The notes below the pieces were generated by a model. The model had not been told where the DNA came from. It did no database searches and saw only the letters and a list, made by a program, of their open reading frames with translations. This document shows positions 20,998-64,000 of a stretch of DNA of 64,000 nt, one piece after another. The first letter of the stretch is position 1. Each line of letters starts with the position of its first letter. Source of the stretch: Amoebophrya sp. A120 (taxonomy: Eukaryota; Protista; Dinoflagellata); the NCBI GenBank assembly GCA_905178155.1, contig CAJINV010000005.1:3757697-3821696 (forward strand), in the 5' to 3' direction. The position numbers and the translations under genes were made by a program.

Positions 20998-25347
<4,350 letters not shown>

Positions 25348-26949
25348 TTTGATAAAATGGTGGAGTGGAAATTTAGGTACTGACCACGACACGACGAGAA
25401 GTAGGTGATGCGCGAAAAATGGGCCTAGAGCGGACCGGAAGCCAAAGCCCAAACGGTTCGAGTAGCCGCCCGCATGTTCAAGCTGGTGCTGGTGTACATG
25501 ATGCGTTTATGTCAAGACACGCATCTTCGACGTTTTGGTCAGTTGTAGAACTTTTTTCAACTACATCTTCGAACGAAGAAAACTACACCCGTGAGACAAC
25601 GAACCGCGGCTACGTTTACACACGAAACTCTACGCCCGGTTGTTTCCAAAGGACAAGAAGACCCGTAGAGGCCGCTCCATAGCGGCACTACGTCTCAATG
25701 GCTTCCCAGATGAAACATGCTTGACCACGATGTTAGGCAAAGAACTACGCACAGTATACATAGTAACGAATTACGCTCGACGTCCCCCACGTCGTACCAT
25801 TGTGCGTCAACACCGGGCGAACAGATACCTTTTCAGACAAAAGCAACATCAAAAAGCCGTGGACAGTTGCCCGCCGTTCAATAGACCGCTGCTGCGTGTG
25901 TTTGGAGAGATTTGTCTGTGCTTTGGTTCGTCAAATGCGCCGTCTTGTTTAGTTGTTAGTTTAAATTTCGGCCAGAACCAGTAAGGTCGAGACCTTTCAG
26001 AACAAAGGCAAAGTTTTTCGCAAAAGTTAAACCCCTTACGTCATAGGCGATGTAGGACCGTCGTGGTGACACAAATACAAGTGCCCATGTCAGAATTGAC
26101 TTGCAACTTAGCTTACCTTACGCAAGCTCATGAGACGCAGCACTGAAACCGATACTGATGCTCCCTTAAATTCAAAAATAAAGTGGGAAAAATTTGGCAC
26201 TGATGTCGAAAATGTGACACATAAATAGAGGAAGTAATTAGATGAACATCCTGTGAGGTTTTGCGGGCGCAAGAGAAACTGAACAAACAGAGAAGAACTA
26301 ATACAGCCGAAAATTTTCAAAATTGTACATAATAGATTTGTCGGCATTAAAGTCCTTAGGTCGTCGCAAGAGCAGTTTAACTGTACAATATTTAGTAATA
26401 TGCGTTTATTGAGATCAAGAATGAAATGATAGAACAAAAAGCCGGTAGTGTATTCGGGATTAAGTATAGATAATTAGTCGCCCACTGGGACGACCGGGGG
26501 CGCAAGCAAAAGGAGCAACGCCGGCGTCTGCAGATGAGACGTTTAGTAGAGAAGTAAGAAAGTAGACTTACTTGTTGGATCTTCTCTAACGAGGAGTAGA
26601 CATTTCCTTTTTCTTAGTTCACAGTCATGCGAGTGCACCCCTATGACTACAAAACTGTAAGAGTCGCCGATTCTTTCAGTTTGTCAATTACTTCCAGTCA
26701 TCGGCCCAGCGCTTGACTTTTCAGAGTTTGAGTTGAAGTTCTTGTTCTATTTTTTACATAGATATAACCATAGAATAAAGATGTGATCGCCTCTTTCGGA
26801 TCCTCTACCTGCTCCTGTTTCAAAACTCCATTTGGAGGAAAGACTTTTTTGTATCTCCGAGGTAGAGGACAAAAGCGGGATAGTACTTTAGATGCAGCTG
26901 TATGTTGACCATACTACTTCATGAGGAGAAATCTTCCCGATTTTTGCAC

Positions 26950-29900
26950 TTACACCTGATTGTCGGCGGAAGCTGCGGCTTCCGTTGCAGCTGCAAGTTG
27001 CGGCGGAGCAGCAGCGGCAGCAGCAGCGGGAGCAGCAGCAGCGGCAGCAGGAGCAGCTTCGCCTTCCGCCCTCGTAACCGGTTTCTTTGCAGCAGCCGCG
27101 CCACCTCCACCAGCGAAGGGGCCCGCCCCCATCACCTTCAGCACGATGACAACGATCAGAGCGAGGCCAGCGATACCGCCGAGAATGATCGCGATGAGCA
27201 CACCGGTGTCCATGTCGTCATCGCTGGAGGAGGACGAGGTCGTGGCGGTGGTCGAACCGGCGACGGGCGCGGCGCCGGTCGCCGTGGTGGTGGGCACGGT
27301 AACTGGATTATGAGCGTGCACAGCGTCCCCCTCCCCCTCATTTGTATGGCATGAACAGCAACACAAGCAACAGCAGAAAAGGGGCTTTCGCATGACAAAT
27401 CAAATCTGCAGGCGGCTTGTAGTAGTACTATTTGAGGTCCCAAAATTTGTCATGCCTAACAGTGCTTACGGGCAAGGTGTGAAAAATGTGGTATTTTGCA
27501 TTACAAATGAGGGGGAGGCTGTACAGTTGTGCAGTCTCATACGGATCCACCGTGGCCGTGAAGGTGACGCCGGACAGGGCCGCATCGTTGGACAGCGCGG
27601 TCTGCAGCGTCGTTTGCATGGTGGCGGAGGCGAACGTTCCCGCGGTCCCCGCAGCCGTCATTTGCCCCTGCGCCGTTGCGAGGTTCGTGGCACTGTTGGC
27701 GTCCGCGTACAAGTTGAATGAGCCGCTCGCCCCGGCCGAGCTGGTCGTCAACTGCCGACGCAGCTGCTTGCGAAGTTCGCGGCGGGCAGCGAGCGCGCCC
27801 GTGAAAGCCACGTCCATTTCTGCGTAGATGCCGTTCTGGACTTGTCCGCCGGTGCAGGAGGCCAGATCACTGAACGTCTTGCCCGTACCGGAGACCGGCC
27901 CGCACATAATGCTCAACAACGTGGAAGTGATCTTGTTTTTGGCCGCGGTCTTCTGGGCGGCCGTCAAACTGGCGACATCCATCGCGAAGCTCATCGTGAC
28001 CGGGGTGGAATGGCGAGTGTAGCTGGCCAAGGACGTGGCGCGGTCGTACCCCTTCATCAGGTAGGCGGCCCACGTCGTCGTACCGCAGGCCTTGGCCGTG
28101 TGCCAGTTGTTCAGCTTGCTGGCATCAGCCGGGCACTGCGTGTCGTAGGGCGTGTTGTAGCAGTCGGGCGCGGAGCGGCAGGTGTCGTACGAGTACTTCG
28201 CCGCCGTGGAGCCCGCGAACACGGAACTGGCGATCCCGGTGGGGCAGCTGGGGTCCACGTAGCACCAGGGGACCTGACACCAGTTGTAGTCCTTGCTGCA
28301 CCAGCCCAGGTGGGCGGCCACGTCGTTCTGGGAAGCGGGGCAGTAGCTGTACCAGGGGGTGTCGGGCATCTGGTCCCAGGCGGCGCACGTGGTGCCGTAG
28401 TACGAGATGAATTTCAAGTTCTGGTACTGGCCCGGGTTGGAGGCCGGGTAGCTGCCGGTGATGGTCGAGTTGATTTTGTCCCCGCCGAACAGGCACGCAC
28501 AGGACCCGGCCTTGTCGTACTTGTTCGACTTGGTCCCGGTGGGGTCGTTGGGGCAGAACCCCGTCGCAGTGGTGGACGAGATGCCCGGCACGCTCGTGTA
28601 TCCTGAGTAAAAACGTCCCCACACCATAGTCAAGTTGGGGAATCGGCTAGACAAATCCACAAGCTTTGGCTGTTTTACATGACAAATTTGGATTCGTAGT
28701 GTAGTGCTGTTTGAGCTAGCTCAGCAGCATCACAGATCTAGCATACCATGCCGATTGGAGCATGACATATTGCAAAACACGATTGGAAAATGCTTCTCAT
28801 GGGGCTCCGCATGAGAAACATTTTCAGCATGCAGATTTGCATTACAACTATGGGGTGGGGACGTTTTTGAATAGGATATCGTGTAGCAATTGTTTACGCC
28901 GCAGGGGTTATGGCAGGAAAATAAAACTGCTTCAGTGATGTGAGGACTTTGGTGAAAATTTGCATGATAGAGACGACTTAGCTGTTACTTCACACATGAA
29001 GACAAGGACATTGATTCGCAAGGCTCTGAGACTTCAAACACAGATTCCTCGTCCGCAATTTTTATGCAAGTTTCAACAAGCGAAGCAGGTTTATTTTCGG
29101 GCGATAGGACTGGTACGAGTAAAATGCGAGGGGGGATCCCTGGAAGACGCTGCTCTGGACCCCCCACGTGCACGACTCGTCGGCGTAACACCAGGGCGAC
29201 GTGCACCAGTTGTCCGTGGTTCCGAAGTTGGCTGGCGTCTGGCAGTAACTGACCCACGGCGTGTCGGGCACGCGATCCCACGCCGCACAAGAGCTCCCGT
29301 AGATGCCGACGGCCCCATATGCACTGCGAAATTCATTTGTATTGCCGCACAGGTACAACTACAACAGGCACCACGAGCACGACCACATGATAGAAGTAAA
29401 TGCATCATAACAACATCACCTAAGGACTACCTAACAGCCGCCGCCCACTACGCGACTTGTCAGGCGAAACACGCTGCGACAAGCATCACGATCATCATCA
29501 TTGGCTGTGTCATGCGGATGAAACAGCATGTCAATGGAAATATGTAGTACAACGCCTACGCGCGGTGCGGTATAATATCAATAAATTTCCTTGAGATACA
29601 CCCAGGTTCTTGTACTGTCCCGGGTTAGTAATCGGGTACATGTCCAAGAACGCAGTGGTGTGGTTGGTGCCCTGCGCCTTGCAAGAGCAGTCGGAGAACG
29701 TGCCCTTCAGTTTGCAAACATGCGGCGTGTAGAACTCGTTCTCCTTCGAATCGTATCAAATGCAAATATGTCTGGGTCTGGAAAGTTTGTAATGCTAGCT
29801 TTCCATGCCTAGGAAATCTGTACTGCATAACCAACAAAAGTCGCGCCCTCTTTTGTACAGGCAAAAACGCAGTTTCTCATGCGGACTGCCTATGAGAAAG

Positions 29901-32900
29901 CGTTCTGGAAAGTTGTCATGCTGGGCTGCATTCGAAAGTGTTTCCATCAACCACATTTTAGCATCACAAGTTTCCAGACCCAGACATATTTGCAACGCAT
30001 AAATCGTAGGGGCACTTGGCCGCGTTCGCCGTCTTCCCCGCGGTGGTGTAGCAGTCGGGCGCGGAGCGGCAGGTGTCGTAGGAATACGCCATGGCCGTGC
30101 CGCTGCTGGCAAAGACCGTGGTGGAGATCCCGGTGGAGCACTTCACGGGGTCCACGTAGCACCAGGGAATTTGGCAGTAGTTGTTCCCCGCGGTGCAGAA
30201 ATCGGTCTTCCCGTCGGCGGGGCAGTACTGCTTCCAGGGGGTCCCGTATCGAAGAAAAAAACGGCTTAAGTCTAACTTTTTTGCGGGAACAGCATCACAG
30301 ATTTGTTTTGCATGACAGAAAACCTGTCATGCGCAGCTACTACGCGAAAACATGCATTGAAATAGCCTCTGATGCATATCCGGCATGACAAGCGTGACTG
30401 TATTGCAACGTCTGCAAGACAAAGTTACACTTACACAGTTTTTTTCGTGCGTATCCCGCTCACGCTGTCCCAAGCCGCGCAGGACGTGCCGTAGACCTTG
30501 ATGCTGGTCATGTTGGCAGGCGTATCCAAGAAAAAAAGTGCGTCAGGTTTTACAAAGACATGCTTTATTTGCAGTGATGCAGCAACACAGGCTTGGTCTA
30601 CTGCTCCGTGACAAAAAAAATCTGCAAATAAGTGCCGGAGAGCGCTTTTTCATTCAGGCAAAAGACAATGCATAAAAACTAAAGCAGGTGAGCAATTTGC
30701 GGTTTACGCATGACAGAGCGTGTCTGTCTTGCCGGCCCTAGTACTGCAGCACACCAGTCTGCTCAGCGTAATGCAATTTCGAGCCCGACTACAACAACTT
30801 TTTTCCTTCCATAGTAGGCACTACCGGTGTACAAGGCCGACGGCAGTTCTCCACCGATGTATTTGCATTCGCAATCCCCGGTGCTAGTGCCGGCGTTCTT
30901 CTTGTCCATGCGGTTGGACTGCGTGCCGGTCGGATCGTTCGGGCAGGTACCGAACCCGTCGGTGAGGGTCGAGTTCGCGTAGCAGTCCTTGAACCCGCAC
31001 GTCTGGTACGAGTACTTGGCCGCGGGGGAACCGGTTCCGGCAAACACGGAAGACGCCACCCCCCAGGGGCAGGTATCGTCGACGTAGCACCAGTATCAAA
31101 TGCAAACATGTCTGGGTCTGGAAACTTGTCATGCTAAAATGGGGATGATGGAAAAACTTCCGCATGCAGCCCAGCATGACAACTTTCCAGACTGCTTTTT
31201 CATAGGAAGTCCGCATGAGAAACTACGTTTTTGCATGACAAAAGTGGCTGCGTCGTTTGTTGCTTATGCAACACAGATTTCTCAGTAATGTAAAGCTAGC
31301 ATTACAAGTTTCAACTTTCCAGACCCAGACATTTTTGCAATGCATAACCACGGGTCAAAGCACCAGGGGTTCGCGTCGAGGGGGTAGGAGCTCTTCCCTT
31401 GACAGGAGCCCGCGAACCAGGGGGTGCCGGCGGTGTTGTCCCACGCGTTGCAGCTGGTCCCGTACACCTTGATCGACGCAAGATCCTTGTACTGCCCCGG
31501 CTGGCTGGTGGGAAAGTTCGTGTAAACGCTGCTGGCCAGCTCCTCCCCGTTGTATTTGCAAGCGCAGTTCGTGTACGTGGAGCCGCACTTCATCGGAGTG
31601 GCCCAACCAGACACGAGGGTCTTCCCGGAGTTCGGAATCTGCTTCAGATATCAAATGTAAAAATGTCTGGGTCTGGAAGAATGCATGTTTGTCATGCTTG
31701 TCTGGCATGACTCTCAAATCTGTAGTCATGCACGTGACCCCAGAGCCCCATTCTTCTGTGATGCAGAAACGCAGTTTGTCATGCAGAATAGGCAACACCT
31801 AGGACCTCAGAAACTTGTCATGCTGAGCCAGCATTTGTAGCCTCATCATGAGACGCCACCCAGCATCACAAGTTTCCAGACCCAGACATTTTTACATTTC
31901 ATATCAGCGTCGTCGCGTAGTCGAACGGGCAGTCCTTGATCTTTTTTCCGTTCTGGTTGTAGCAGTTCGGCGTGTCTTTGCACGTATCCATCATCATCAT
32001 CATTTATCCTGCACTAGGGGGGGGCGTGCGGAGGTTTGGGCTCGAGTTCGTTCAAGCTGCATCTCGAGGGTTTCTCACTGCAGCGTCGCACCTCGCTTAT
32101 CGTCGCTTACTAACATCAAGAAGTCTGAGTATCGAACTGCTCAACTCTCTTGAACATCACTGAAGTCGTTCTCTTCTTCTTCTTCGAGGATCGGATCGCA
32201 TTTCAGATCGAGCTTCTTCGTCGCGACGCACTTCTTCTCGTGCGTCTTCATGCGTCGGGACGCGCCGACCTTCTTCTGGAAATCGCGTGGCCAAGAAATC
32301 GAGTGCTCCGAGCAGTGCGGACAAGTCAGCTGTCGGACGCTGAACTTCGAAACGTCGCCACCGCTAAGAAACCGCTGCGGAGGAAGAACAAAACGCTGCG
32401 AAGGCTTGTATTTGTTCAGAATACACTGGCCCGATTTCCCGTACGCGTATTCCTCGGCCGGTGTGTAAGACCCGTCACGCTCACCGACGATGCGGACGAA
32501 GTCGTCCTCTTGATGCAGCTTGAGGTGGGCACGCAGGGCCCGCAAAGATCCGCCAAGCGCCGCCGCGCACTTGTTGCACCACAAAGCGCCAGCCCCGTCC
32601 TTGCAACCAGTATAAATCCCGCCCGATTTCCGCGCAAGGTCGTCCGTTTGCCGCTCCGAAATTTCTCCCTTCAGCACTGTCTGTTTCGCTCGTAACTCCG
32701 CCAAGCTCGGAGTGACTTTGAGGACCGCCCGCTTACTGCCGACGCGGCCCCGATCCCCATACGCCGAATCAAACTCCTCGCGCGAAATTCCGTTTTTCTT
32801 CAAAAGTCGCTCGTACGCATCTAGAACGCGTGCCTGCGATAGCGCGTCACGCCAGGACGCGAAAAACCAATGCTGCATCGTGGCATCGATATACCACGAC

Positions 32901-35134
32901 CTCGTGCGCAGGAACCAGTCCCTGCGAGTTTCCGGAACAGCAAACCCGGCGAGCTCCCGGACCGGAATCCGGGCGGCCGCGCACGCCTCGATGAAGGACT
33001 CGTAGACCGACGGTAGTCGCGATGGGCGTCGTGGCAGGAGGAACATTTCGGGGCTGCAATCCGGGGTCGTGTTGGGGTCCGCGGCGCTGATGATAAAACG
33101 GCCAAAAAACGCCTTGCGCGGCAGGTAGTCCCGGTCGCGCCGCAACAAATGCCCGCCGTGTGACAGCCTGGCATAGCCTATCTCCGCGGAGATCGGCGCA
33201 ACGCCGATGTGTTCCCGGAGGTCGCCATGCGAAACTTTCATGACCTCCATCTGGGGGAGGGACAGATTGAACAAACGCCGAAGGATTGCGTTGTCGGCGG
33301 CTGTCAGGTCACTGAGCTCCTGCGCCGAAAAAGACCGGCAATTCGCTCCATACAACATCGTACCGCGGACCAAAGCAACCACCACCGCGCGCCTGTGCCA
33401 TTTATTCAATTCCCCGAATCCGACCAACGCTGTTAGTGTTCAATTCCCCGAATTCCAAGAAAAAAACGCTGTTAGTGTCAATTTGTGATGCGCAACATGC
33501 AAAGTGATTGCGTCTGTCATGCTTGGCATGCATCGTGGGGTCCATTAAAGGGCGTTTTCACGTACTATCTGCGCATGACAGGTTTTTGCTGTCATGCCAG
33601 ACAAACTTGTAATGCTATTCCGCCAAAATAAAAGTTACACCTACAATGTTTTTTTCTTGGATAGCACGTGTTGTACGAATAGTACACGTCGGTGCTGAAA
33701 TCAGACTGCACTGCACTCGGGCAGCTGCTGTCGACGTAACACCACGGAGTCTGATTTGTTTGTATTTATTGACAGTGTGTTTTTATTATATCGCGCAGCT
33801 ACTGCTATTTGATGTTTAACAACATTTACATACTTGCATACACGATTTCGATTTGACATCCAAACCCCGACGTGACAGGCAACAACAATCCAACAACAAG
33901 AAGATTTAGTCGTTACAACAACGCAAGAACCAGATCATCACTAGATAGAACTAGAAACAGTATGAGTTATTCTGCTTATGCTATACCTGACACCAGCTGT
34001 TGTCGGAATGACAGAAATCCTTGCCAGAAGTAGGGCACGAGCCGATGTACGGGGTTCCTGAAGTTGTTTTCATATTTTTTCGCAAAAAAAAAACTTTCTT
34101 CTTTTCTGCCGTGCTGCTGCTCACAGCAACGGCTACATGATCTTGATCGCAGGCAGATCGCACTACTAACTTTTCGCAGCGTTGTCCTTCTTTTTCAGAC
34201 TTTCTCATCAGGTCTTTTACTCAGGACGATATTTCAAGTACTTACTAGAGAGACCACGCTGGTGGACCACAACAAGAAGAGCGGAATGGGTGGTCGTGGA
34301 CGAGAGTAAAAACAAGTATACCGGCCACGAAATCCCAGGCGGCACACGTGGTTCCGTACATCAGGTTCGAGGTGGTGTTCACCCGGCTCGCCATGGTTGG
34401 GAACGTCTCCAGAGTAGAGGTGGTGCTGTTGTAGTAGGCCCCGCCGAGGCAGGCACAAGAGCCCGCCTTGTCGACCTTGCCGCTGCCCGTGCCGGTGATG
34501 TCCACCGGACAGCCCGCGGACATCGGGCTGTTCGCCGCCGCCCAGCAGTTCAAGGTGCCGCACGTCTCGTACGAATAGTATTCCCCCGAGCCGGAAAACG
34601 CGGACGAAGCGATCGCGGAGTCGCAGGAGGGGTCCACAAAGCACCACGGCTGCGCCACCCAGTTCTCCGACCCCGTGAAGTTCGTCGCGTTCGCATCGTA
34701 GTACGGGGTATCGGGCAAGCTGTCCCACGCTGCGCACGCAGTACCTGATCATGATGTGAAGAGCTGCAGATCAATGTCTGATTTAGTTGTCTAGGGTAAG
34801 CAGCAGATGCTGGAGTGAGTACGTACAACCGATCGGAACTATGGTCCTCGGGGCATGCTGGTAAAATCAATGAAATTGTAAAAAAAAAATGGCCTCAAAT
34901 TAATATAGAGAATGGACGGAAGCATTCTCAAGCCGCTCCATTTCGTTGGAAACAATTACCGTAGAGCGAGATCGCCGCGGAGGAGTTGTGCTGTCCCGGG
35001 TTCGTGGTGGGGAAGTTGTTGTACGTGGTTGCCGGCAAGGTGCCTCCCGCGTACTTGCACTTGCACGCTTGCTTGATCCCGTACGCGCCGGCGGCGAAGC
35101 CCGCCCCGAGGACGAGGCGGAGCTTGTTCTTCAT
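26950..35134 (-). CDS. type I membrane surface protein with six Cys-rich kringle-like repeats, 14 exons
   Basis: signal peptide MKNKLRLVLGAGFAAGAYG; six repeats of YGTxCxAWD..GTPW...WC..PWCYVD..C...YSY.TC; Thr/Ser stalk; TM helix GVLIAIILGGIAGLALIVVIVL; Ala-rich tail; GT-AG introns 34745-34959, 34058-34321, 33751-33986 plus ten introners, all junctions in frame. Confidence 0.88.
27309..27541. mobile_element. introner (TIR TATGAG...CTCCCCCTCATTTGTA)
   Basis: imperfect TIR of about 40 bp; flanks TGGAT/CGGAT; removal gives TATVDP-VTVPTTT. Confidence 0.88.
28599..28878. mobile_element. introner, family A
   Basis: TATCCTGAGTAAAAACGTCCCCACACCATAG ... CTATGGGGTGGGGACGTTTTTGAATAGGATA; perfect TCGTG flanks; removal gives NNCYT-SVPG. 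Confidence 0.92.
28909..29106. mobile_element. introner (TIR TATGGCAGGAAAATAAAACTGCTTC)
   Basis: right end reverse-complements to TATCGCCCGAAAATAAACCTGCTTC; degenerate flanks GGGGT/GGACT; removing the element plus 5 nt gives YSYQS-CG, matching the repeat consensus. Confidence 0.82.
29318..29598. mobile_element. degenerate introner
   Basis: TAT/ATA ends; weak TIR (GAAATT.ATT..TATT..CCGCAC); flanks CCCCA/CACCC; removal gives QYKNLG-AVGIYG. Confidence 0.75.
29754..30001. mobile_element. introner, family B (TIR ...TGCAAATATGTCTGGGTCTGGAAA)
   Basis: 24-bp perfect TIR core; perfect AATCG flanks; removal gives KCPYD-SKENE. Confidence 0.93.
30247..30453. mobile_element. introner, family C (TIR TATCGAAGAAAAAAA...TAACTTT)
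   Basis: imperfect TIR of about 33 bp; perfect TCCCG flanks; removal gives WDSVSG-TPW. Confidence 0.9.
30523..30813. mobile_element. introner, family C-like, degenerate
   Basis: TATCCAAGAAAAAAAGT vs TATGGAAGGAAAAAAGT; flanks poorly matched, but removing the element plus 5 nt gives SAY-ANMTSIKVYG, aligning with YKDLASIKVYG in a sister repeat. Confidence 0.75.
31094..31346. mobile_element. introner, family B (opposite orientation to 29754-30001)
   Basis: TIR core ATGTCTGGGTCTGGAAA; flanks ACCAG/ACCAC; removal gives FDPW-CYVDD. Confidence 0.92.
31649..31903. mobile_element. introner, family B
   Basis: TATCAAATGTAAAAATGTCTGGGTCTGGAA with a near-perfect inverted copy; flanks TCAGA/TCAGC; removal gives YATTL-KQIPNSG. 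Confidence 0.92.
31985..33663. mobile_element. introner, family C, interrupted by a LINE insertion
   Basis: perfect GCACG flanks (31980-31984, 33664-33668); right TIR is the reverse complement of TATCCAAGAAAAAAAC; left TIR split into TATCCA (31985) and TCCAAGAAAAAAAC (33454); removal gives YSYNTC-KDTPNCY. Confidence 0.88.
31991..33453 (-). mobile_element. 5'-truncated non-LTR retrotransposon, RTE-like
   Basis: ORF 32141-33427 matches the post-RT region of RTE-clade ORF2 (MLYGANC...ILRRLF...RLSHGGHLLR...LPRK); CxxC...HxxxH and CxxC...HxxxC fingers; (ATG)n tail at 31989-32003; TCCA on both sides; RT core absent. Confidence 0.85.
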
Positions 35135-36099
35135 TTCGATTCCCATGTCAAAGACGGATCCGCTTGACGCCGTGCGGTCTTTTGCTTTGATGTTGGTCCG
35201 TTTTTATTTATTTGCGCCTGGTGTGTTTCTTTAACACTTGGACTTGGTATAACTGTATTAGAAGCGATCTGGTTATTTTTGACCAGCTTCTTGTGTCTTT
35301 TTAGTTTTAGATTTGGGTTAAGGTTGTGAGTTAGTATTTGCTTTTGCGCGTAGTTCTAGTACTCCTAGCCGTTCTTGACAAGACTGTACGTCCTTTTTTG
35401 CTTCTTGTGAGGGTAGTGAGTCGCGAAGACTACAAACGCGATATTAAAGTGGAGTGCTTGGGCGTCGTGGAGTAAACCCGGTAGGGTTGCTCATTGACAC
35501 TGTCGGGACGATGGAAAGCCTCACAATAACAGTATTAATTTATGCTACAGGGGGTGTAAGGCTTACGCTACGAGGCACACATCGCGTTGCACATAACGAG
35601 CACATGGCTAAGGACCGAGCGGTGTAAGTTTTTCACGACACCGAGCCGGCCACACCTCGTGATGGTGATGTTGACCGACGTGCTTCACGTATGTCTAAGA
35701 ATCTCACACCGACGCATCTATACTTCGTTCCTGATTTACATCTAATTGCGTACCAGCCGCGGGGCGCACGATGCTACGCGACTTTTTGTGATTTACTTTG
35801 TAGTTTCCATTTTCTACGACCGACGTTGACGGAGGGACCGACGTGGCTTCTTCGGCACGCACCGATTTCGCATTTCGATAACTACGAGAAGTTACTACCA
35901 TTTACCGAGCAGCTACTTTGAGTTACACTTACGGAGGCCGGCGAAGATTCGGTGCAAGCATTTTGATATGCTGGCACTTTTCGAACAGCTACAGTTACAG
36001 AAGTAGACTCTACAAAAATATGAAAAACAAGGCATGGAGGCGCGAGCAAAACAACCACTGCAACATAATCACGAGTACCACCGGAACAGGGAAAACGCT

Positions 36100-37660
36100 C
36101 AGGCGAGACACCACGCCCGGCTGGGCCGGGGGCAGTTCTGGCTTTAATGGGCAGCCAGGCCGCGGCCCCCGGGATGGGCCACCAATATCTCTCGACACAC
36201 CTCCCTGGGCCAGGGGGCTACCCCAAATGCAATATTACAAGCTGGCGCCATCACCACAGCAGAGCGAGGGCGCGGGGGAAAGCAAGGTGGCCGGCGCCTC
36301 CGCCTAGTCGCGCCGCCCAGAAAGCAACACGGGCAACACAGCGGGCGCCAACCCCTCCCCGGGCGCAGGCGCTTCCTGGTCCTAGCCGAACACCGGCGGC
36401 CCGGGAACGAAGGCTGGGCGGGGAAAAAAACCATCGCGCCCGCGCCCTCCGCCGGCCCCCCGCCGAGCCCCGCGCGCGCCCGCCGGCGGCCGGGCTTCCA
36501 CAGAGGGGGCGCCCGCTCGCGAATTTGACCAGCCTGCCGGGCCTACTGGCCCCTGCTGTCGGATGGCCGCAGCAGCACGGCCGCGCAGACCGTCTTGCGC
36601 ACCCTCACGCACGCCGCATAAAAGCTGCTGACCTCGCCGACAAATAACAGTGCTTGCTGGCAGCTGAGATTCAGCGTCGTGCTGCGTATTTGGGCGATGT
36701 CCCCGACCAGTTGGAAGCTGGAGCTTTTTTTCATTTTCTCGATTCCTTGCCATGAAGCACGAACACTACTCGAGTCACGCGTTGCGCCGTTCGAAGCAGT
36801 CAGCTGCGCCCGCTCCATAACCAGTCGGAAGAGCTTATGCACTAGCAGAACGGTCCACGTCCCTTTCCTCCATAAAGCTGGGGCGGCGCGCACCCTTTTT
36901 CTGCCGGCTTCGTTCCTTCGCTAGCTCCTGCGCTTGGGCTCTGTTCTACCTCGTAGCCAGCTGCTTCCTCTGCTCGCCCCGCAACCGGCTGCTCCGCCTC
37001 CCCGGCCCCCCTTTGATGGCGTCGCTACCCCCCTCCGAGGCGCCGGGCGAAGCTTCCAAGTGCGCCAAGCCGGGCTGCCGGCAGCGCCCGCGAGTAGGGC
37101 GCCCCGCTGCGTTGCCTGGGGCTGGCGACGGCGGCCCGGCCCGGCCGCAGGAGCACGCTGGTAAGGCGCGCCGCGCTTTCAAGGCGCCACACCCCCGGCG
37201 CCGCCCTTCGTGCGCCGTCTGTCTGCGGCGGCGGATGGAGCAGGCAGGGCCCCGCGCGACCGAGGGCGCTGCGCAATTGCCTCACCCACTTGCTGGCCGG
37301 CGGCGCGGTTACTGGCTGCCTGCGTGTGCAGCGCGTTATGTCGCTCGCTGCCGTGGCCCCCGGTGCTTCGCGCGCGTCACCCAATGCCCGCCCGCGGCCA
37401 GGCGCTTTTCTCAAAATTGCGGCGCCGGCTCGTTTTTTTTTTTTCCTTATACGGGTGGCCCCACTCTTCCGCTGTCGCCGCCAACTGGGCGGCCAGCGCC
37501 CGCGTCCCCTGCTCGGCCCACTCCACCGCCATGCAGTGAAAACGTGCCCCCCCCCCACCGCTACGCGCCCGCCCCCGGCTTGCCGGCGAGCTCGCAGGGG
37601 CCACCCGCCCGGGGCCGGAGAGGGGCCCGCCGGCCACAAAGACAACAGGGCGCGGGAACT
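36100..37660. other. GC-rich intergenic island, possibly a decayed repeat or transposon
   Basis: abrupt shift to very GC-rich sequence with Arg/Pro/Ala/Gly ORFs in all frames and no recognisable protein. Confidence 0.45.
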
Positions 37661-38036: not shown

Positions 38037-41000
38037 TCACTCAACACCCCCTCCAGCACCAACTCGAATCTCACACTTCCTCACCACCTCCTTTCCAAAC
38101 ACATCCGCAAGTCTCCGTGGCCCGTCACTCGGCTCGTCGCTGCCGTTGAAGTCCAGACTTATCAAACTCAGGTCTGCATCGGCGTTTCGGAGGAAGTAAA
38201 TCCGTTTTTCGGGAGCATCAAGTTCCACCAAAGCTCTCTCCTGACCAGTCCGCACGCGATCCGTTTCCTGTTCTTCCCCTGTTCTTCCAACCAGCAGCAC
38301 ACTCTCCTCCAACAACAACCCCGCTTGAAACACTTGTCGCAAGTACTGCACGACTTTGCTGCTTTCCGCGGCCGCGCTGGAGAGGTACTCCTGCAAATCC
38401 GCGCTGGTGATGCTTGAATTTGTCTTCTCCTCCCCTTCCGCGCCCGAGACGACGCTTTTGGGCGTACTGGCCCCACCAGCGGATGAAGTCCTCGCGGTCT
38501 TCACTTTGTTCTTCGAAGCCGCTATCTCTTTCAAAATCCCCTGCAAAAACGGCGCGCGTTCGGCGGTGGACGTTGAGGAGCGCTGTGTAGTACTAGCACC
38601 ACAATCCACTTCGGTAGAAAACACCACTAGCATCTCCTGCAAGAACGACAAATCGTCCATGGTTTCCGGGTCCCGCCCGAGCCACCACATGCTGTAATCC
38701 TCGTTCCAATAGATTAAGTTGTCTTCCGACCGATACACCGGCTTCTCCGCCCACATCTCGTTCTCCTCCTGTCGGTAAACGGCGTTGAAGCACGGGAAAT
38801 TGCGGATCTCCACAGCACTTTGCAACAATGCCGTAGTACCAGAAGACGACGACTTCGGGTGGCTCTGCAGTTCGAATTCCTCCTCGATCCTCAAGGATGG
38901 ATTTCTCATGCTGCTGATCGCGTTCGACACTGCAGTTGCGCCACTGTTCACCGCCCCGTGCAACAGTTCATTTGTCGTCGCGGAGCTTGTACTGTCTCGA
39001 TTGGCAGCAGCTCCTTCCGTGAGTAAACCTAAAGACACACTCTGCACACCATTCGGGATCGTTCGGTCAAGGTCGTTGGAGCCGATCCTGTTGGTGCTAC
39101 TGGTCGAGGATGAACCGCTCTTGTCTACAACTTCACCGTTCCTGTACTGCTCCGCAGGCCGGTGAATCAAAGGCGGCTTGGTCGAAGCGGATGATCTTAC
39201 TCTGTTCATCGCAGCACTTTCTTTCGAGTAAGCCGGATGCGTTGAGGAGTCGAAGGCTGTGGAAGAGGCTATCAACTGCAAACATGTCTCGGTCTGGGAG
39301 ATTCCGAAATTTGTCATGCTGTTTTTCCAAGATCCACCAAATCTAGAAAGCAGTGCCTAGCATCACAGGTTCTGCAGCCCCCTTGCGATGCCTATTCTGC
39401 ATGAGAAATGGCGTCTCAGCATGGCCACAAATGGACAGCTTTTGCAAGTCATGCAACACAGTTTTTTGTATGATTCGCAACATGCATCACAAGTTCATCA
39501 CATCCTTCCAGACCCAGACATATTTGCATTTGATAGCGGCGGAGATCGTGCGATGTTGGGAAGTAGTGCCTGAGCTGATCGTGCGAGCACCGCCGGAACC
39601 TTGTATTTGGTCATCCTCGCCGCCGGACCTCAATCGGTAAAACGGGTCCGGATCGGCGTAGTAAATCTCGTCCGGGCTGTTCCGCTTCGCTGGTAACGCC
39701 GGGTTGAGCAGCTTACTGCCCGACGGACTCTCTAGCAGGCGTTGCGTTTCTTTCACCTCGAGTCGCTTTATTGATACTGAGGGTCTGGTGGAGGAGGTGT
39801 TTGGCGATGCATTTCTCGCTTTGGCTTTATTCCCGCCGGATGCGCTAGAGGAAGTAGCGGCATTCGCATTTCGCGACGAAGATGAAACTTTGCTAACATA
39901 GTTCATCGACGAACTACCACCATCGTTCGACGTTTTCTTCACGGCCACACTCGATCGCGCGTTGCGGATTCCCCTACTGGACGCACTCTGACTACCCCCC
40001 GGAAGATAAGGGCCACCGCCGCGGCCGCTTTGACTCCCGCTGCTTTCCGGCGAACTTAAAAGCTGCGGTAAGGGGGAAACGGGCGGGGAGGCCAGTTGCA
40101 CGAAAGAGGTCGAGTTCGTTTTCCGAAGTAGTAACTTTTCATCGTCAAACTCCCGCCCTGCGTACGCCGGCTCTTGCAACTCCTCTCTCGATTTTTTCTT
40201 CTGGAACTGCATCAACTTCGCCACTCCGTGCCGGCTGTGATTCCGGTTACTATTTTGGTTGCTCTGATGTGAAGTTGACCCTTTTGACCCGGCGTCGCTG
40301 GTGAATGTCGAGCTTCCTGGCACCGGGCGCCCGACGTGGTCAAATTCCAACTCTTCGGGATCATCCCGGGCGGAGAAGGAGTTGATGCTCGAAATCGGCG
40401 ACGCTTTGTTCATGTCCGAGAACCGAAAACCGCCGGAAGAGTTATTTAGTAACCCGCTTGTATTTTTCGCGAATAGAAACTCCGTGTCCGGGTTACTATT
40501 GTTCATCACACCGCCGGAAAAAGACTTCAAGTGGTACTCCTCATCCGCAACAGAGGTTGACTGCGGCGTGGCGAGAAGTTTGGTGTTGCCAAACGGAATG
40601 TAGGTCGAGCTGTCCTTGCTGGTCTTCGGCAAACCTGGTTTCAAAGAGGCGGAGGCTGAGGCTGATCTGGTCGAAGACTCGGCCGGCGGCGAGGGATCGG
40701 GAACAACTCTTTTTTGGCGTAGTTTTTGGTGATCCTGGTTCAGTAAATTCGCTGCCTCTGTTGCGGAATGTGGTCGTGCTGGCGCGTCGTGGTCTAAAGA
40801 TATGCAACTCCCGAGGAGCTCCTCTTCCAGCGAGTCTTCCTCTTCCAGGTAGTCGGCGTGGAAATAGGCGTTGTGATTCTGATGTGCACTGGATGGCCGT
40901 CCCGAAGCGGCGGGCGGTAGATCCTGATAGCATTTTTTTTCTCATAGTCATATCATATCGCATGATAAAAGACAGTGGGTATGTTGCAAGTGCTTCGTTT

Positions 41001-52633: not shown

Positions 52634-55028
52634 ATTATTGTCAGTCCTGCTCTCACGATGAGCAGTCGAGGCGAATCGTCGCGCAGTAGGGGCTGTCGAA
52701 CCGCCTTGCTTGTTCCCTGTTTATCGAGTTTTTGTATGAATTCTGGCACTTGCTTATCCGTTGCATTGCGCACAACTGCACGTATTGCGACTAGGAAAAC
52801 GAAAATCATGTGCTGAAGTGTCGTGCGTGAAGAAGATGAACTTAAATAGCTGGCGCAATTCTTACCTGTATTTGGTCGTTCTTGCTCTCCTCCTCGACCC
52901 CCGCCGTTGGACCCAGCATTGAAAGCTGCTCCACCAGCACTGCTTTGCGCTGCCCCTGTCCCCTCAGCCGACAAAAGCATAAATCCAGCTGCCGAAAGCA
53001 AGCCGGCAGCACCCAGTGACGGCAGAAATGAAACTCGTCTCATGGTTTGCTTTCTGCAGGAGCAGAATCTTTGAATTGCTTGTGCAAAACAAAAAAAAAT
53101 GTCCGAGTACTAGCAGCCACTTTTTGCAAGGCGGCTCTTCTTGGCTAGAACTACGACTATGGAAGAGTTGCACGTAATATGCAGATTAAAACTCGGTGCA
53201 AAAAGCACGACGTTCAGTTTAAATTCATTAAAAACGTTTGGATCATATGTATTCAATTTCGGCCGCGAAAACGACAATTTCGCAACATATCGTTGCCTCA
53301 ACGCCAAAAGATCTTCCCTACTTGCAGCTATCTCCAACGCCGCCTGCAAAGATCTGTGGCCCTCTCTCTGGGTACTACTTATTTCCGGAAGAGCGATGCT
53401 GTCTTAGAAGAAGCAACTGCAACAAGCGGTAGCTCTGTCATTAATCACAATATTTCAAAGTGCAATACGCTCGATTCAAAACTATCATACCACAGCGCCT
53501 CCTTTAAAGACAAAAAATATTAGGTGGAGACTGGTACCTGTAAACACGAGCCACATCAATCTATCGCACACAAATGGAACAAAGAAACGTAAAATTAAAA
53601 ACCTAGCAACGACGTGCGTCGAAAAAAATTGCATTGATATTGTCCACAGATATAATTCGTACAAAATTTCCACAATGTGATCGGAAACATAAACCTAGAC
53701 CTTCTATCAAAATGCAATCACGGAAGCAAAAAAGTTTCTAACTATACTTTTTAAAAAAGTGCCCATGAATGATGTGATATGCTTGTTCTCTTTGTACGCT
53801 AATCTTCTGCCAATGCACCTAACAAATTGCTTTTGCAAGAGCCGTCCAGCATCGCTTTCTCAGTTACTAGACTTCTTGCTCTTTACCTCGTCCATCACCG
53901 CAAAAAACGAGGGCCGCACTGTTTTTTACCAAAGAGTAAGGAAAATCAAAGTGACGATCTTGACAAAAAAGCCGCAGCCGGAAAATGAACGCAAAAGAAA
54001 TCCGCATCGCTAACGCTGCTGCAGCTGCTGCGTCAAAGTTTGTGCAGCTGGGTGATCCTCATGGTTTCGCTACTTATTCCAATTTTCGCGTTTGATCTCG
54101 ACTCTTCTGAACACAAATACGAGAAGTGGTTCTTCGCTGCAATCCGAAAATCGAAAGGGAACAAAAGCGCCTCCGAAGGAGGTGAATTTTTGCGCTGGAA
54201 AATCAGAACATCAGTGCGTGCGCATCAAGAACAAGATCACTCACGTTATTTCGTCTTAGGTACCTCTTTACAAGGACGACGAGAAACTTCACTATATTGC
54301 AATACAACATCGACAATGAAAAAATTTTTTACAACGCTCGTAGAAGATCTGAGGTCGACATTCCGGGGGCGCAGCACAGAAAAAAAGTCGATAGTCTTTC
54401 TTGTACTGGTATATGTTCATGAGGAAACATTCTACAGTGGGCAACCGGACAAGGAAACTCGGGGCTACACGATAAAAGCAGTGCAGTACTTCTAGTTCAG
54501 AAAGGTTATTTACAAGTATAGAACAAGCAGCACTGTATCTCTCGGTTACTACGACGACTAGATCTGGACACGTCTTTTGTGTGTACTAAGTCGTTGCGAA
54601 ATAATATTGAGCCTGTCGCAGTTGACAGACAAAAACTGTATAGTATAGCAAAAGAAAGAACTTTAGGTTTAATCATCCGTTCACAAGTGTGTCTCACTTA
54701 AAAATGACACTTTGAAACCAACACCATCAATGCTACTTCGCGTCGACCCCATTCGAATACACAGAAACCTGTGACGGCGACACAGCATTACGGTATTCCA
54801 AGTAAAAATCAGCCTCACTGCGCCGGCACAACCCTGCTGATACTTGTAGTCATGCTTGACAACATGATCAGAAATGCATCTGGCGATTGTCTCATGCAGC
54901 TGGCGCAAGACAACATGAGCTGCGGCAAAATACGGAGTGCTCTGTTTGATTTCGATACATACATGACACAAGTTTGCGCACGCACCATCACAGTGAAGGC
55001 GATTATAGTCAGAACGTCTCTCCCTTTC

Positions 55029-59927: not shown

Positions 59928-62900
59928 TAACCTATTTTCGCTGATCGCTGATAGCGCCACGCGGACGTGACCACCGGCGGCAGGGACGAACATAAGGGTC
60001 AGGAGACTCCCCTTTTTTCGAGGGGGTAAGAAAGCTAAATCCGCTCGCAAAAATTCGGCGGGCTTCGAACTACACAAAGATCCTGGATGTGCGTGAGGGA
60101 TGCAAAAGGATCAAAACGTAGTAGGAAGTCGAATACTGAATAGCTCTCAAACACCGACGTCCTTATGTTCTCATGTTGTTCAACTCCCGACGGTGATCGC
60201 AGCACCAGGAGCCCACACGAACTGAAAGAGTAGCGCGCGGCTAGCAGACCAGAGCAGGCGCGAATCGCCGATCATCCACAAGCGGAGATCAAACAGTAAA
60301 ACTTTCTTTTTCACAAGCAGAGCAGTAGCAAGCGCAATAGCGCTGAGGAGCAAGTAAGTTGTTTAGAGCTCCGGCGCCATATGAAACTACTTGCCAGGAT
60401 TCGCAGACCTGACCCAAAGCTATCTACGATCAGACGCCATGATGGAACTCCGCAGACAACGAACTAGCCTCCGATCATCATATAAATGTCATTCATATCA
60501 ACTGCGGAACCCGAGTGAGAAAGAACGAAAAGATGAGGTCGCGGGCACCGCGTTCGTGGCACATTTTCACCACCACCAGATAGCGCGCGCATGTAAACAA
60601 GCTCTGGCAGACTGACGAGCACCAAAGGGTGTTCGCCGGAAAGACAGCAGCAGAAAAAAGCGCCCATCTGGTTCCGGGAAAATCAACACGAAGTTGGTCG
60701 TCGGACCGCAGGGGTGTAGTACGAAAAGTTGTGCAACGTCCCGCCGGCAACACGTTGGTGAACGTCAAGTGCCAGAATCCCCAAAGACTGTCGCGCCCCC
60801 CCGGACAAACCCGCTGGCAAGGCGGAAAAAACAAAGCCCCTGCGAGTGCGCGGGATCCCGGATCCGCAACTAGCGCTACAAAGGTTGCAAAAGTAAAGAG
60901 AACAGACTTAGAGGGGAGAAGCAGGATAAAAGGGTAGAGATCAAAGTCTACAGGGGCGCATGCAAGAGGGGGCAAAAGGAACGGGCAGTCCAGTAGTAAG
61001 CAACAGCGAGTAAGAAAACAACACTTCGATGAAACTAGGACTAGTAAACAACGCACACCACACAGTTGAACGAAGGCCTTGTATCCGCTCTCCCGCTTCA
61101 GTGATGTCGTTGCCACCTCGCAACGCCCTTCTGTGGTCCGTCTGATCTACCCTCGGAAAGCGCGGCGGCGTGGCCCTAGGTGTCGGCAATGCTGTTGCTG
61201 ATAGAAATCCCCAGAGTGTTTGGTAGTCAGTTTCGTCAAGGTCAAACCGGAGGGCGTAGGGATGGTTTACCTGTCGCCTTGTAGCCCGAGGCTGGTTCGA
61301 ACCGTTCTACGCGCTGATGTCATCCGCGAGATGTCCGTGAAGAGTAAGGCGGCAAGTTAAGGGGGAATTGAGATGACGGGGAACATAAAAAATAAAAGGC
61401 AGTCGAAAGCAAACTAGTTCCCCGGCTCGACATGCGGCGACGCTGCCCTTCCGCGCAGCGCCCCGGCGAGCAGTTGACGGCGTACTCACTCACCGGACAG
61501 GCCGTCTCCCGTTGTTCAGCGGCGCGGCTATTCTAGCACAAAAACATTAGTAGTAGTTTTTGCGACTTCTATCTTTTTCTTTCTTACTAAGCTATTACTA
61601 GTCTTATTCTTTTTCTCACTAAGCTATCTGCAGACCTCGGCGGCGCATCCACCCGGTGAGTGAGTGAGGGCAGTTTGTGCAGGACGCATTGTATTTTTGT
61701 TTTTGGCCGACGTGCTTTTGCGTGTGTGTGTGTGTTTCTTCGTCAACGTCCTTATGTGTGCACCCATGTGAGACTAGCGCTACCGGGGGGCTCTTCCTGT
61801 CCCCCCGGGTCCTAATGTGTTTTGATTTGGAAAGGGGTAGTATCCGTTCTCAAACAAACAAACGCAGGATAACTACTATAATTTGCTCGTTTAATGAGCG
61901 CAGCAAATTGCTGTATTGATGTACGGGACCATATCTGCCATGCGGGATCGTGAGGAAAAGGATTTAGAAATTTTTTGTGAACAGAGAACATAGCGGATCT
62001 AGATATTGAGCATGTAAACTACTATTCTAAAAAAGTTCATAAGATGATGCACAACTATTAAAACATAAAGGAGCAAAAAAAAAAGGTGAATGCGGGAGCA
62101 AGGTCTTAACAGTCTAACGGATTGACTTCGTGCGTGTACACAGAGTTTGTCTCTTTACAATGAGTATTTACTTACATTTAAGTTCGCTCAAAGCAACAAA
62201 CATAAACTTTGTGAGATCCTGCGGGTTTTTTTTTTCGTTTTCCAATCGATTTATATTTTACAGAAGCACAAGCGGAGGAGAACTTTTATTGCAAAGAACA
62301 AACCGATACGTAAAATCATACAAGGGTAGAAACATCAGGCAACTTTAGTTTGTTCGTGCGTCGTTGTGGTGTCACTACAAGCTCGACTACTATTTAAGTT
62401 GAGGAAAATGCACGACTGGTATGAAATAAACGCGGCCGTGGGGGTCCTATGATATTAATGGGGGTAGGTCTAGGAGTCATCAATTCTTGGCTGCCATGAC
62501 AACGACGAAAACAAAAATCATTTTTGTGTAGTGTCGTTCTACTACGTTTCGATTTTCTCGACCTAACATGATATAATACCAAGCACAAACCACGCAAATA
62601 TACGACCGCACCGTGTTCACTCAAAATGTATAATCCTTTTGTTTTTGAAAAACAAACAGAACACTTCTTGCGAGTAGCAAAATTCTAGATATCTGTGAAT
62701 TTGCTGTTCGGAAAAAATGCTTTTGTGCGTGAAGGCCACAAAAGGTTGCCGTTAGCCGTTCAAACATCGTCAGCTGTAAGCTTTCCGATGGACGAGAGAC
62801 AACACAACACACTAGCTACTATACCGCGATGTGTGTCAAACCACTCGGATGGCTCGGGGCGCAAAGTTTTGAGTTGTAGCGCTGCAACACAAGATGGTAT

Positions 62901-63808: not shown

Positions 63809-64000
63809 AAACCGAGAATCGGAAACCGAGAATCGGAAACCGGAAACCGAGAACCGAGAATCGGAAACCGAGAATCGGAAACCGAGAACCGAGAATCGGA
63901 AACCGAGAGCCGAGAATTGGAAACCGAGAACCGAGAACCTGAAACCGAGAATCGGAAACCGAGAACCGAGAATCGGAAACCGAGAATCGGAAACCGAGAA
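63809..64000. repeat. tandem satellite of 7-bp units (AACCGAG / AATCGGA) with 14- and 21-bp higher-order periods, continuing past the window end
   Basis: AAACCGAGAATCGG repeated with variants to position 64000. Confidence 0.92.

What the first reader, a model, noticed from the sequence alone, without database searches (positions are those of the whole stretch)
29754..31346. The same introner sits in opposite orientations within one gene
The body of 29754-30001 is the diverged reverse complement of 31094-31346. The ORF track shows it too: MRTAYEKAFWKVVMLGC on + at 29879 and MRTSYEKAVWKVVMLGC on - at 30884. Both interrupt the same minus-strand gene and both excise in frame. A normal intron is polar (donor, branch point, acceptor), so orientation independence implies symmetric signals or an RNA or DNA hairpin.
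Basis: partly seen in the sequence, partly recalled or inferred. Interest (0 to 1): 0.85.

Follow-up and report, generated by a model that had tools for sequence, protein, structure and literature searches.

The report
Reversible hairpin introns in Amoebophrya
Two copies of one small jumping element sit head-to-head inside a gene of the marine parasite Amoebophrya, and assembled transcripts lack both although neither has the usual splice signals; the cut positions fit one fixed distance from the element's matching ends, which would be a testable rule for a splicing process that is still unexplained.

Summary
Observation confirmed. 29754-30001 (A) and 31094-31346 (B) are reverse complements (85.8% over 240 nt; bodies alone also align). 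The window is Amoebophrya sp. A120. A and B belong to its published class of non-canonical introner elements: about 31-nt terminal inverted repeats starting TAT, and a 5-bp target duplication. RNA-like contigs skip both, each as core plus 5 nt. The spliced product equals the annotated 920-aa protein. DNA contigs keep the inserts. No possible cut position gives GT-AG. In 110 family copies with a called gene strand, body orientation is 50:60, with no G or AG preference at the junctions. Two more families in the window also occur both ways. Not found in the papers searched: (1) this orientation independence; (2) one cut register shared by all 11 hairpin introns checked, 1 nt before TAT and 4 nt after ATA in transcript direction, so the element is symmetric but the cut is polar; (3) the outer 7 nt of A and B are not inverted with the bodies, and end types shuffle across the family. 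Catalyst untested; a relaxed spliceosome is slightly favoured. Known class, useful new rule.

The parts
29754..30001 (.). Element A core (TAT...ATA, 248 nt); body forward on +; longest perfect TIR stretch 29761-29784 / 29971-29994
29749..29753 (.). Left 5-bp target duplication of A (the right copy is 30002-30006; 5 of 5 match)
29750..30002 (-). Inferred intron A under the common register (253 nt; ends TT..AT in transcript sense); the RNA junction alone allows 8 positions
31094..31346 (.). Element B core (253 nt); body reversed relative to A
31089..31093 (.). Left 5-bp target duplication of B (the right copy is 31347-31351; 4 of 5 match)
31090..31347 (-). Inferred intron B under the common register (258 nt; ends TT..GG); the RNA junction allows 5 positions
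31649..31903 (.). Element C, third copy with the same TIR (68% to A), oriented like A, skipped in RNA contigs
39270..39535 (.). Element D, fourth copy, oriented like B, in another minus-strand gene, skipped in an X1 contig
26950..32003 (-). Host gene: 10 exons, 9 hairpin introns; 920-aa Cys/Trp-rich repeat protein with a C-terminal hydrophobic stretch, no Pfam family
30523..30813 (-). Hairpin intron of another family with a decayed target duplication; its junction allows only the 1/4 register
29318..29598 (-). Hairpin intron with TATC..CATA ends in transcript sense; allows registers 0/5 and 1/4 only
28909..29106 (-). Hairpin intron with TATC..CATA ends; excludes registers 3/2 to 5/0
27309..27541 (-). 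Hairpin intron; excludes register 0/5
30247..30453 (-). Hairpin intron; inverted relative (71%) of 33452-33663, both skipped in RNA contigs
33452..33663 (-). Hairpin intron whose 3' ATA has decayed to AAT; still cut at 1/4 or 2/3
28599..28878 (-). Hairpin intron; inverted relative (80.5%) of 21419-21789
21419..21789 (-). Hairpin intron in the cGMP-dependent protein kinase gene; 376 nt (core+5) missing from annotated protein P0001; no RNA cover seen here

Best explanation
A and B are two copies of one non-coding inverted-repeat element with a 5-bp target duplication, sitting in opposite orientations in one Amoebophrya A120 gene; both are missing from assembled transcripts, likely cut from the RNA at a fixed distance from the paired ends by a machinery that needs no GT or AG. 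SHOWN: relatedness and inversion; a 5-bp duplication; no orientation bias; removal of core plus 5 nt that restores the annotated protein; retention in DNA contigs; no canonical dinucleotides at any position. INFERRED: (1) the element moves as a MITE-like DNA transposon, so it lands either way round. (2) Both ends carry the same repeat (TAT-N7-AAA), so either orientation offers the transcript the same 5' end, the same 3' end and the same closing stem. (3) The cell supplies the polarity: the 5' cut falls 1 nt before TAT and the 3' cut 4 nt after ATA. This removes exactly one target's worth of sequence whatever its letters. (4) The catalyst is most likely a relaxed U2-type spliceosome that reads N-U-A-U as a donor lacking G1 and places the acceptor by distance from the stem instead of by AG. 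(5) The un-inverted outer ends of A and B most likely reflect recombination or conversion through the shared TIR core, not polar splice signals. My odds: RNA-level removal in both orientations 0.92; fixed 1/4 register 0.75; spliceosome as catalyst 0.5.
For: Inversion. TSD: 141 of 143 extracted elements had TAT/ATA ends; flanks match at 0.92-0.97 per position for a 5-bp duplication and at a mean of 0.24-0.31 for every other length from 2 to 9. Orientation: the gene strand was called for 110 of 141 (106 by a codon model, the 4 window copies from ORF and RNA evidence). The model was right in 134 of 140 called held-out segments, out of 200 tried, and 43 of 43 same-contig pairs agreed. Bodies were 50 like A and 60 like B, p=0.39; 48:58 without the window copies. 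Junction letters are free: G at +1 in 38 of 110, AG at the 3' end in 9 of 110. RNA: all four window copies are skipped in X1, which also skips three GT-AG introns and has zero depth over 22268-25437 and 35582-37483. DNA: X5 unitigs 28839-29779, 30417-31118 and 31320-31670 cross junctions unbroken at depth 23-29. Register: 1/4 is the only one common to 11 of 11 introns. Two further pairs give it without the pinning intron; rough chance 0.011. It holds for introns with either end type at 5', so it follows the transcript, not the element. All nine predominant A120 non-canonical site pairs in Table S4 of PMC7789003 begin with N-T, as 1/4 predicts. The 1/4 register puts T at +2 and A at +3, as in 7 of the 8 GT-AG introns read in this window. 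Structure over sequence: 33452-33663 has lost its 3' ATA yet is cut within 1 nt of the same place.
Against: The RNA evidence is assembled contigs of runs whose kind is a guess, from one study (X1 and X2 share a sample; X4 adds three junctions at depth 2.5-3.5), so efficiency by orientation could not be measured. Raw-read runs X8-X10 did not cover the exons. A itself allows 8 registers and B 5; the register rests on 7 other informative introns, all in minus-strand genes of one window. A codon-score test of register on 15 imperfect duplications was uninformative and scored 5/0 highest (6.2 against 3.5). The Table S4 pattern may partly reflect aligner preference for GT or AG. The published account calls the splice sites variable relative to the hairpin. 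Pairing of the ends is expected of any TIR element, and the variable TIR positions 4, 5 and 7 do not compensate (arm identity 0.51, 0.51, 0.34), so an RNA stem is not proven over plain symmetric sequence signals. U1 snRNA was not detected in A120, and the donor-like UAU is predicted to be paired (probability about 0.75). The family counts come from a different assembly, not from A120. The same paper found no transposase in A120.
Confidence: 0.6

Rival explanations
1. Same elements and same fixed register, but removal is spliceosome-independent: a structure-specific endonuclease makes a staggered cut at the base of the stem (3-nt 3' overhang on the intron) and an RNA ligase joins the exons, as proposed for euglenid and diplonemid non-conventional introns.
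For: No constraint on junction letters; equal folding on both strands (mean -101.7 vs -102.0 kcal/mol, n=110, p=0.84); U1 not found. Euglena introns use fixed 3-nt and 5-nt spacers outside a paired motif and need end pairing (PMC12501133); circular products and nuclease-ligase models are discussed in PMC12621601.
Against: The register aligns N-T-A-T with this genome's GT-A donors. The A25 repeats start TTA plus two purines and its listed top sites start TT, which also puts T at +2 and A at +3 (my inference). 15% of canonical A120 introns share the DR/IR layout. No candidate enzyme was looked for: no genome was held.
Confidence: 0.27
2. Symmetric sequence signals alone: the TIR carries a donor-like motif that reads as a branch or acceptor-positioning motif on the other strand (UAU... 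/ ...AUA), and the RNA stem is a by-product of being a transposon.
For: Positions 1-3, 8-9 and 11-13 are nearly invariant at both ends while positions 4, 5 and 7 pair at random.
Against: One intron with a decayed 3' motif and one with TAC at 5' are still removed in or near register; in Euglena pairing is required.
Confidence: 0.08
3. DNA-level removal (IES-like elimination, or excision footprints / empty alleles), or template switching by reverse transcriptase across a strong hairpin flanked by direct repeats, produces the joined form.
For: TA-bounded inverted repeats; strong hairpins and 5-nt direct repeats favour RT template switching (established knowledge, recalled). Only 15 of 168 joints were shown.
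Against: X5 unitigs pass the junctions without a break and cover unique introns at the same depth as exons. The joined form is the dominant contig at the exon depth (about 96-114) and restores a protein collinear with distant homologues at both junctions. Introns with decayed repeats are still removed at core+5. Nine unspliced inserts would destroy the ORF.
Confidence: 0.03
4. The inversion is an assembly artefact, or a single post-insertion flip; the family really inserts in one polarity only.
For: The outer 7 nt of A and B are co-oriented; unitigs cannot phase flank to body across the repeat.
Against: The perfect repeat is only 24 nt in A and 17 nt in B. An independent assembly shows 48:58 orientation and no polarity of end type (G-type end at 5' in 23, at 3' in 30, p=0.41). 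Two more families are inverted in this window.
Confidence: 0.02

Closest known systems
Introner elements (IEs) among the non-canonical introns of Amoebophrya sp. A120 (Farhat et al. 2021, PMC7789003)
   Same: Same organism; terminal inverted repeats starting TAT, 7 variable nt, then AAA; short direct repeats at the junction (5 bp in the legend of Fig. S19); no GT-AG; about 240-260 nt; repeated; MITE-like.
   Different: The text and supplement passages I saw do not address element orientation relative to the gene, describe the direct repeats as varying in length and position, and call the splice sites variable or unknown relative to the hairpin. Here the duplication is uniformly 5 bp, orientation is unbiased, one register fits all, and end types shuffle against the body.
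Either-orientation introners of Polarella glacialis and Aureococcus anophagefferens (bioRxiv 10.1101/2020.10.14.339549, passages; Huff et al. 2016 known only through that preprint)
   Same: TIR/TSD DNA elements that create introns when inserted either way.
   Different: Those carry or recruit GT/GC/GA and AG sites, and the Polarella classes show an orientation bias. These use no canonical site and show no bias.
Non-conventional introns of Euglena (PMC12501133; PMC3935182) and diplonemids (PMC12621601)
   Same: Paired ends, slidable direct repeats, cuts at fixed asymmetric distances outside a self-complementary motif, proposed MITE origin, unknown machinery.
   Different: Motif CAG/CTG with 3-nt and 5(-6)-nt spacers and a purine at the exon start, against TAT/ATA with 1 and 4 nt and free junction letters. 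Unrelated lineage. Here the introns are recognisable repeat families with a TSD.
Internally symmetrical stwintrons of Hypoxylaceae (PMC8469720, abstract only)
   Same: Proliferating introns with long terminal inverted repeats.
   Different: Canonical U2 sites and no target duplication.

Membership tests
Amoebophrya A120 introner elements | Occurs in Amoebophrya sp. A120 | tested here: met
   Two window proteins are 100% identical to proteins named Amoebophrya sp. A120
Amoebophrya A120 introner elements | Inverted repeat joining the intron ends, starting TAT + 7 nt + AAA | tested here: met
   definition
Amoebophrya A120 introner elements | 3-5-nt direct repeat overlapping the boundaries | tested here: met
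   5 bp; 116 of 141 perfect
Amoebophrya A120 introner elements | Repeated in the genome | tested here: met
   4 copies in the window; summed contig depth thousands of times exon depth in X5; 139 copies in another assembly
Amoebophrya A120 introner elements | RNA-supported removal without GT-AG | tested here: met
   none of the 8 (A) or 5 (B) possible positions ends in AG
Amoebophrya A120 introner elements | Assignment to one of the 1,954 published families | not testable with these tools
   no family sequences in the supplement passages seen
MITE / non-autonomous TIR DNA transposon | TIRs, fixed-length TSD, short and non-coding | tested here: met
MITE / non-autonomous TIR DNA transposon | Cognate autonomous element or transposase | not testable with these tools
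   no genome held; PMC7789003 reports none in A120; PMC12130899 reports a TIR-flanked A120 family with ORFs, relation untested
Canonical U2 or U12 intron | GT/GC-AG or AT-AC ends | tested here: not met
   registers; AG in 9 of 110
Canonical U2 or U12 intron | Lariat intermediate, snRNP dependence | not testable with these tools
   no raw reads of this strain were offered
Either-orientation spliceosomal introners (Aureococcus/Polarella type) | Intron creation in both orientations | tested here: met
Either-orientation spliceosomal introners (Aureococcus/Polarella type) | Canonical sites carried by the element or recruited from the TSD | tested here: not met
Euglenid non-conventional intron | CAG at +4..+6 paired with CTG at -8..-6 | tested here: not met
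   ends are TAT/ATA; definition
Euglenid non-conventional intron | Circular excised RNA | not testable with these tools
   contigs only
DNA-eliminated sequence (IES-like) | Joined form present in DNA | tested here: not met
   unbroken X5 unitigs across 3 of 4 A/B junctions; contigs drop rare variants, so rare excision is not excluded
Group I/II or other Rfam RNA | Match to a covariance model | tested here: not met
   one chance-level hit (E 0.32) in 28400-32100, outside A and B

The most novel reading that the evidence does not exclude
Amoebophrya A120 runs a second splicing code that ignores junction sequence: any TAT...ATA-closed stem is cut 1 nt before and 4 nt after it. The 1+4 ruler equals the 5-bp target duplication, so every insertion of these elements, at any site and in either orientation, is a perfect intron from birth. 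That would explain how tens of thousands of them invaded exons, and it would be an independent parallel to the 3+5 ruler of Euglena.
Probability: 0.45. Interest if true: 0.8.

Novelty: already known. Interest (0 to 1): 0.56.

Why it matters
How more than 60% of Amoebophrya introns are removed without GT-AG, with no U1 snRNA detected, was left open by the genome paper, partly because direct repeats hide the cut sites. Orientation independence rules out any signal in the element body or on one strand only. A fixed 1/4 register says where the cuts are, so it predicts the ends of the excised RNA and allows lariat-versus-circle tests and minigene design. It also gives gene finders a simple rule. 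The elements themselves are a described class, which caps the novelty.

Tried and rejected
161 came from one assembly with prefix JACKZZ; the other 9 gave no element. No run on record as RNA was listed as a holder. Raw-read runs X8-X10 covered 2-4 of 30 bins, mostly repeats, and say nothing on this gene. Early idea that TATG (5') and GATA (3') are polar splice signals: rejected (23 vs 30, p=0.41; two introns of this gene read TATC..CATA). Early idea of a 4-bp duplication plus one spacer base: rejected for a 5-bp TSD. Codon-score test of the register: inconclusive. Hairpin energy by strand: no difference. Pfam on the host protein: none. A representative search meant to find more annotated junctions near 54-55 kb was of no use, because those hairpins lie beyond the stop codon. 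Huff et al. 2016 was not held. Earlier-findings look-ups by place and by sequence were empty.
Full report
1. The observation. The two inserts are real and related as described. A (29754-30001) matches B (31094-31346) as a reverse complement at 85.8% over 240 nt. The bodies without their terminal repeats align at score 189, against a maximum of 25 in 1000 shuffles. The quoted peptides are the same intron sequence read on opposite strands. The second starts at 31216; 30884 is the far end of that ORF. A third copy C (31649-31903) points like A and a fourth, D (39270-39535), like B.

2. Organism and gene. A kinase ORF and the host ORF are 100% identical to proteins named Amoebophrya sp. A120. Contigs of run X1 skip nine inserts in the host gene. 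Joining at those junctions gives 920 residues identical to P0128. The product aligns to a distant homologue without a gap at the A or B junction itself. X1 is labelled RNA by guess, but it also skips three GT-AG introns and has no depth over long stretches. X2 (same sample) repeats the B and C junctions; its listed pieces do not bridge A directly. X4 (another sample) repeats three other junctions at low depth. Run X5 behaves as DNA: unique introns and exons lie at equal depth, and unitigs cross the left junction of A and both junctions of B without breaking, which a common joined form would prevent (only 15 of 168 joints were displayed).

3. Anatomy of the family. No locus matched window exons. 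I extracted 143 full elements including the 4 window copies and dropped 2 without TAT/ATA ends. In the remaining 141 the flanks are a 5-bp direct repeat: 116 perfect, 17 with one mismatch, 8 worse. The two arms mirror each other over about 30 nt, with positions 4, 5 and 7 variable. Both A and B fold on the transcribed strand into one long closing stem. This is the layout of a MITE-like DNA element.

4. Orientation. A codon model called the gene strand for 106 loci copies; the 4 window copies were set from ORF and RNA evidence; 31 stayed uncalled. Controls: 134 of 140 called held-out segments were right (200 tried), and 43 of 43 same-contig pairs agreed. 140 of 141 bodies orient consistently in one cluster. 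The split is 50 like A and 60 like B (p=0.39), and all five subfamilies of 8 or more members contain both orientations. Neighbouring copies in one locus are opposite in 10 of 21 pairs, so the A/B arrangement is ordinary for this family. Two further families in the window are also inverted within minus-strand genes: 30247 and 33452 (both skipped in X1), and 28599 and 21419 (the second supported by the annotated protein only).

5. Where the cut falls. Every one of the 11 hairpin introns with an RNA junction loses core plus 5 nt. The direct repeat makes most junctions slidable, but older copies have decayed repeats. Intersecting the allowed positions leaves one register: 1 nt before TAT and 4 nt after ATA in transcript direction. 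One intron pins it alone. The pairs 29318 with 33452 and 39270 with 27309 give it independently. If registers were random, the others would fit with probability about 0.011. Introns with the opposite end types obey it, so it follows transcription. Under this register junction letters are free, and intron 5' ends read N-T. All nine predominant A120 non-canonical pairs in the published Table S4 start N-T, although aligner habits may contribute. A codon-based test on 15 imperfect duplications gave no support. The sample is small and all from minus-strand genes.

6. The ends of A and B. Their outer 7 nt are co-oriented although the bodies are inverted (1 against 7 mismatches in 14). This first suggested polar signals, but across the family the G-type end is at the transcript 5' end in 23 and at the 3' end in 30 cases. 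Against the body, 140 elements sort as cc 53, gc 37, cg 17, gg 6, with 27 intermediate or unclear. Swapped configurations occur between bodies up to 89% identical. Ends therefore travel with the body only loosely. Inversion between an element's own repeats or conversion among copies through the shared core would both do this; my data do not separate them.

7. Mechanism. The element is symmetric, so either orientation shows the transcript the same ends and stem; the asymmetry comes from the machinery. I favour a relaxed spliceosome (about 0.5): the register places T at +2 and A at +3, as in 7 of 8 GT-AG introns read here, and A25 seems to do the same with a different repeat (inference). A stem-guided nuclease and ligase (about 0.3) fits the lack of any junction preference and the Euglena precedent. 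Pure sequence signals, DNA removal, RT artefact and mis-assembly are weaker. No step on the catalyst was tested.

8. Relation to print. PMC7789003 (seen: abstract, passages, sections 10, 11, 12 and 16, supplement passages; no figures) describes this class in this strain, proposes the hairpin, and leaves the borders open. Its 4 main-text uses of 'orientation' and the supplement passages shown concern genes; 'strand' as a word start occurs 0 times in either. Either-orientation introners with canonical sites are described for Polarella and Aureococcus (bioRxiv 10.1101/2020.10.14.339549, passages), and PMC9860276 allows for opposite-orientation copies in its method (passages). PMC12501133 (passages and section 5), PMC3935182 and PMC12621601 (passages) give the euglenozoan parallel. 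PMC12130899, PMC11282704, PMC11453091, PMC13326754 and PMC12787238 (passages) and PMC8469720 (abstract) added nothing on orientation or register; PMC12787238 notes a U1-70K homologue in A25. Searches found no paper stating orientation independence or a fixed register for Amoebophrya. Subscription papers, figures, and the datasets of PMC12130899 were not seen and may hold it.

9. Verdict. A true observation on a known class. The orientation pair is common, not exceptional, but it led to a concrete cut rule that makes the open splicing question testable. Novelty: already known class with new detail. Interest 0.56.

Noticed in passing
window 21001-25347 (-): cGMP-dependent protein kinase gene (P0001, 1052 aa) with five GT-AG introns and one 376-nt hairpin intron.
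   Followed up: partly
whole window: The long ORFs with Pfam hits or RNA support all lie on the minus strand, matching the co-oriented gene blocks described for Amoebophrya.
   Followed up: partly
window 26950-32003 (-): The host protein has four Cys/Trp-rich repeats and a C-terminal hydrophobic stretch, no Pfam family, and 15 relatives including Symbiodinium and Effrenium proteins. It starts with five methionines and no obvious signal peptide; an X4 contig has a loose end at 31989, so the 5' end may be incomplete.
   Followed up: no
window 32062-35399 (-): One X1 contig joins a Cys-repeat fragment like the host gene (34248-34748) to a 432-aa ORF (32141-33439) without a single long frame. The ORF has no Pfam hit; it reminds me of the C-terminal part of a non-LTR retrotransposon protein (recalled, untested).
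   Followed up: no
window 54269-54405, 54466-54585, 2476-2972, 62388-62573: Weaker TAC/TAT...GTA/ATA hairpins with poor flanking repeats; the two near 54 kb lie beyond a stop codon, so related elements may also sit outside coding sequence.
   Followed up: partly
L001-L170 (JACKZZ contigs): Another assembly carries the same repeat family at up to 93% identity to window copies but at different sites, so the family is shared beyond this strain.
   Followed up: partly
family TIR, positions 4-14: Two recurrent end types with linked positions 4, 5, 7, 10 and 14 occur across subfamilies and combine close to at random at the two ends.
   Followed up: partly
110 strand-called copies: 6 of the 9 copies ending in AG also start GT under the 1/4 register, a possible route from these elements to canonical-looking introns; small numbers.
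   Followed up: no
window 63809-64000: Short tandem-like repeat at the window end.
   Followed up: no
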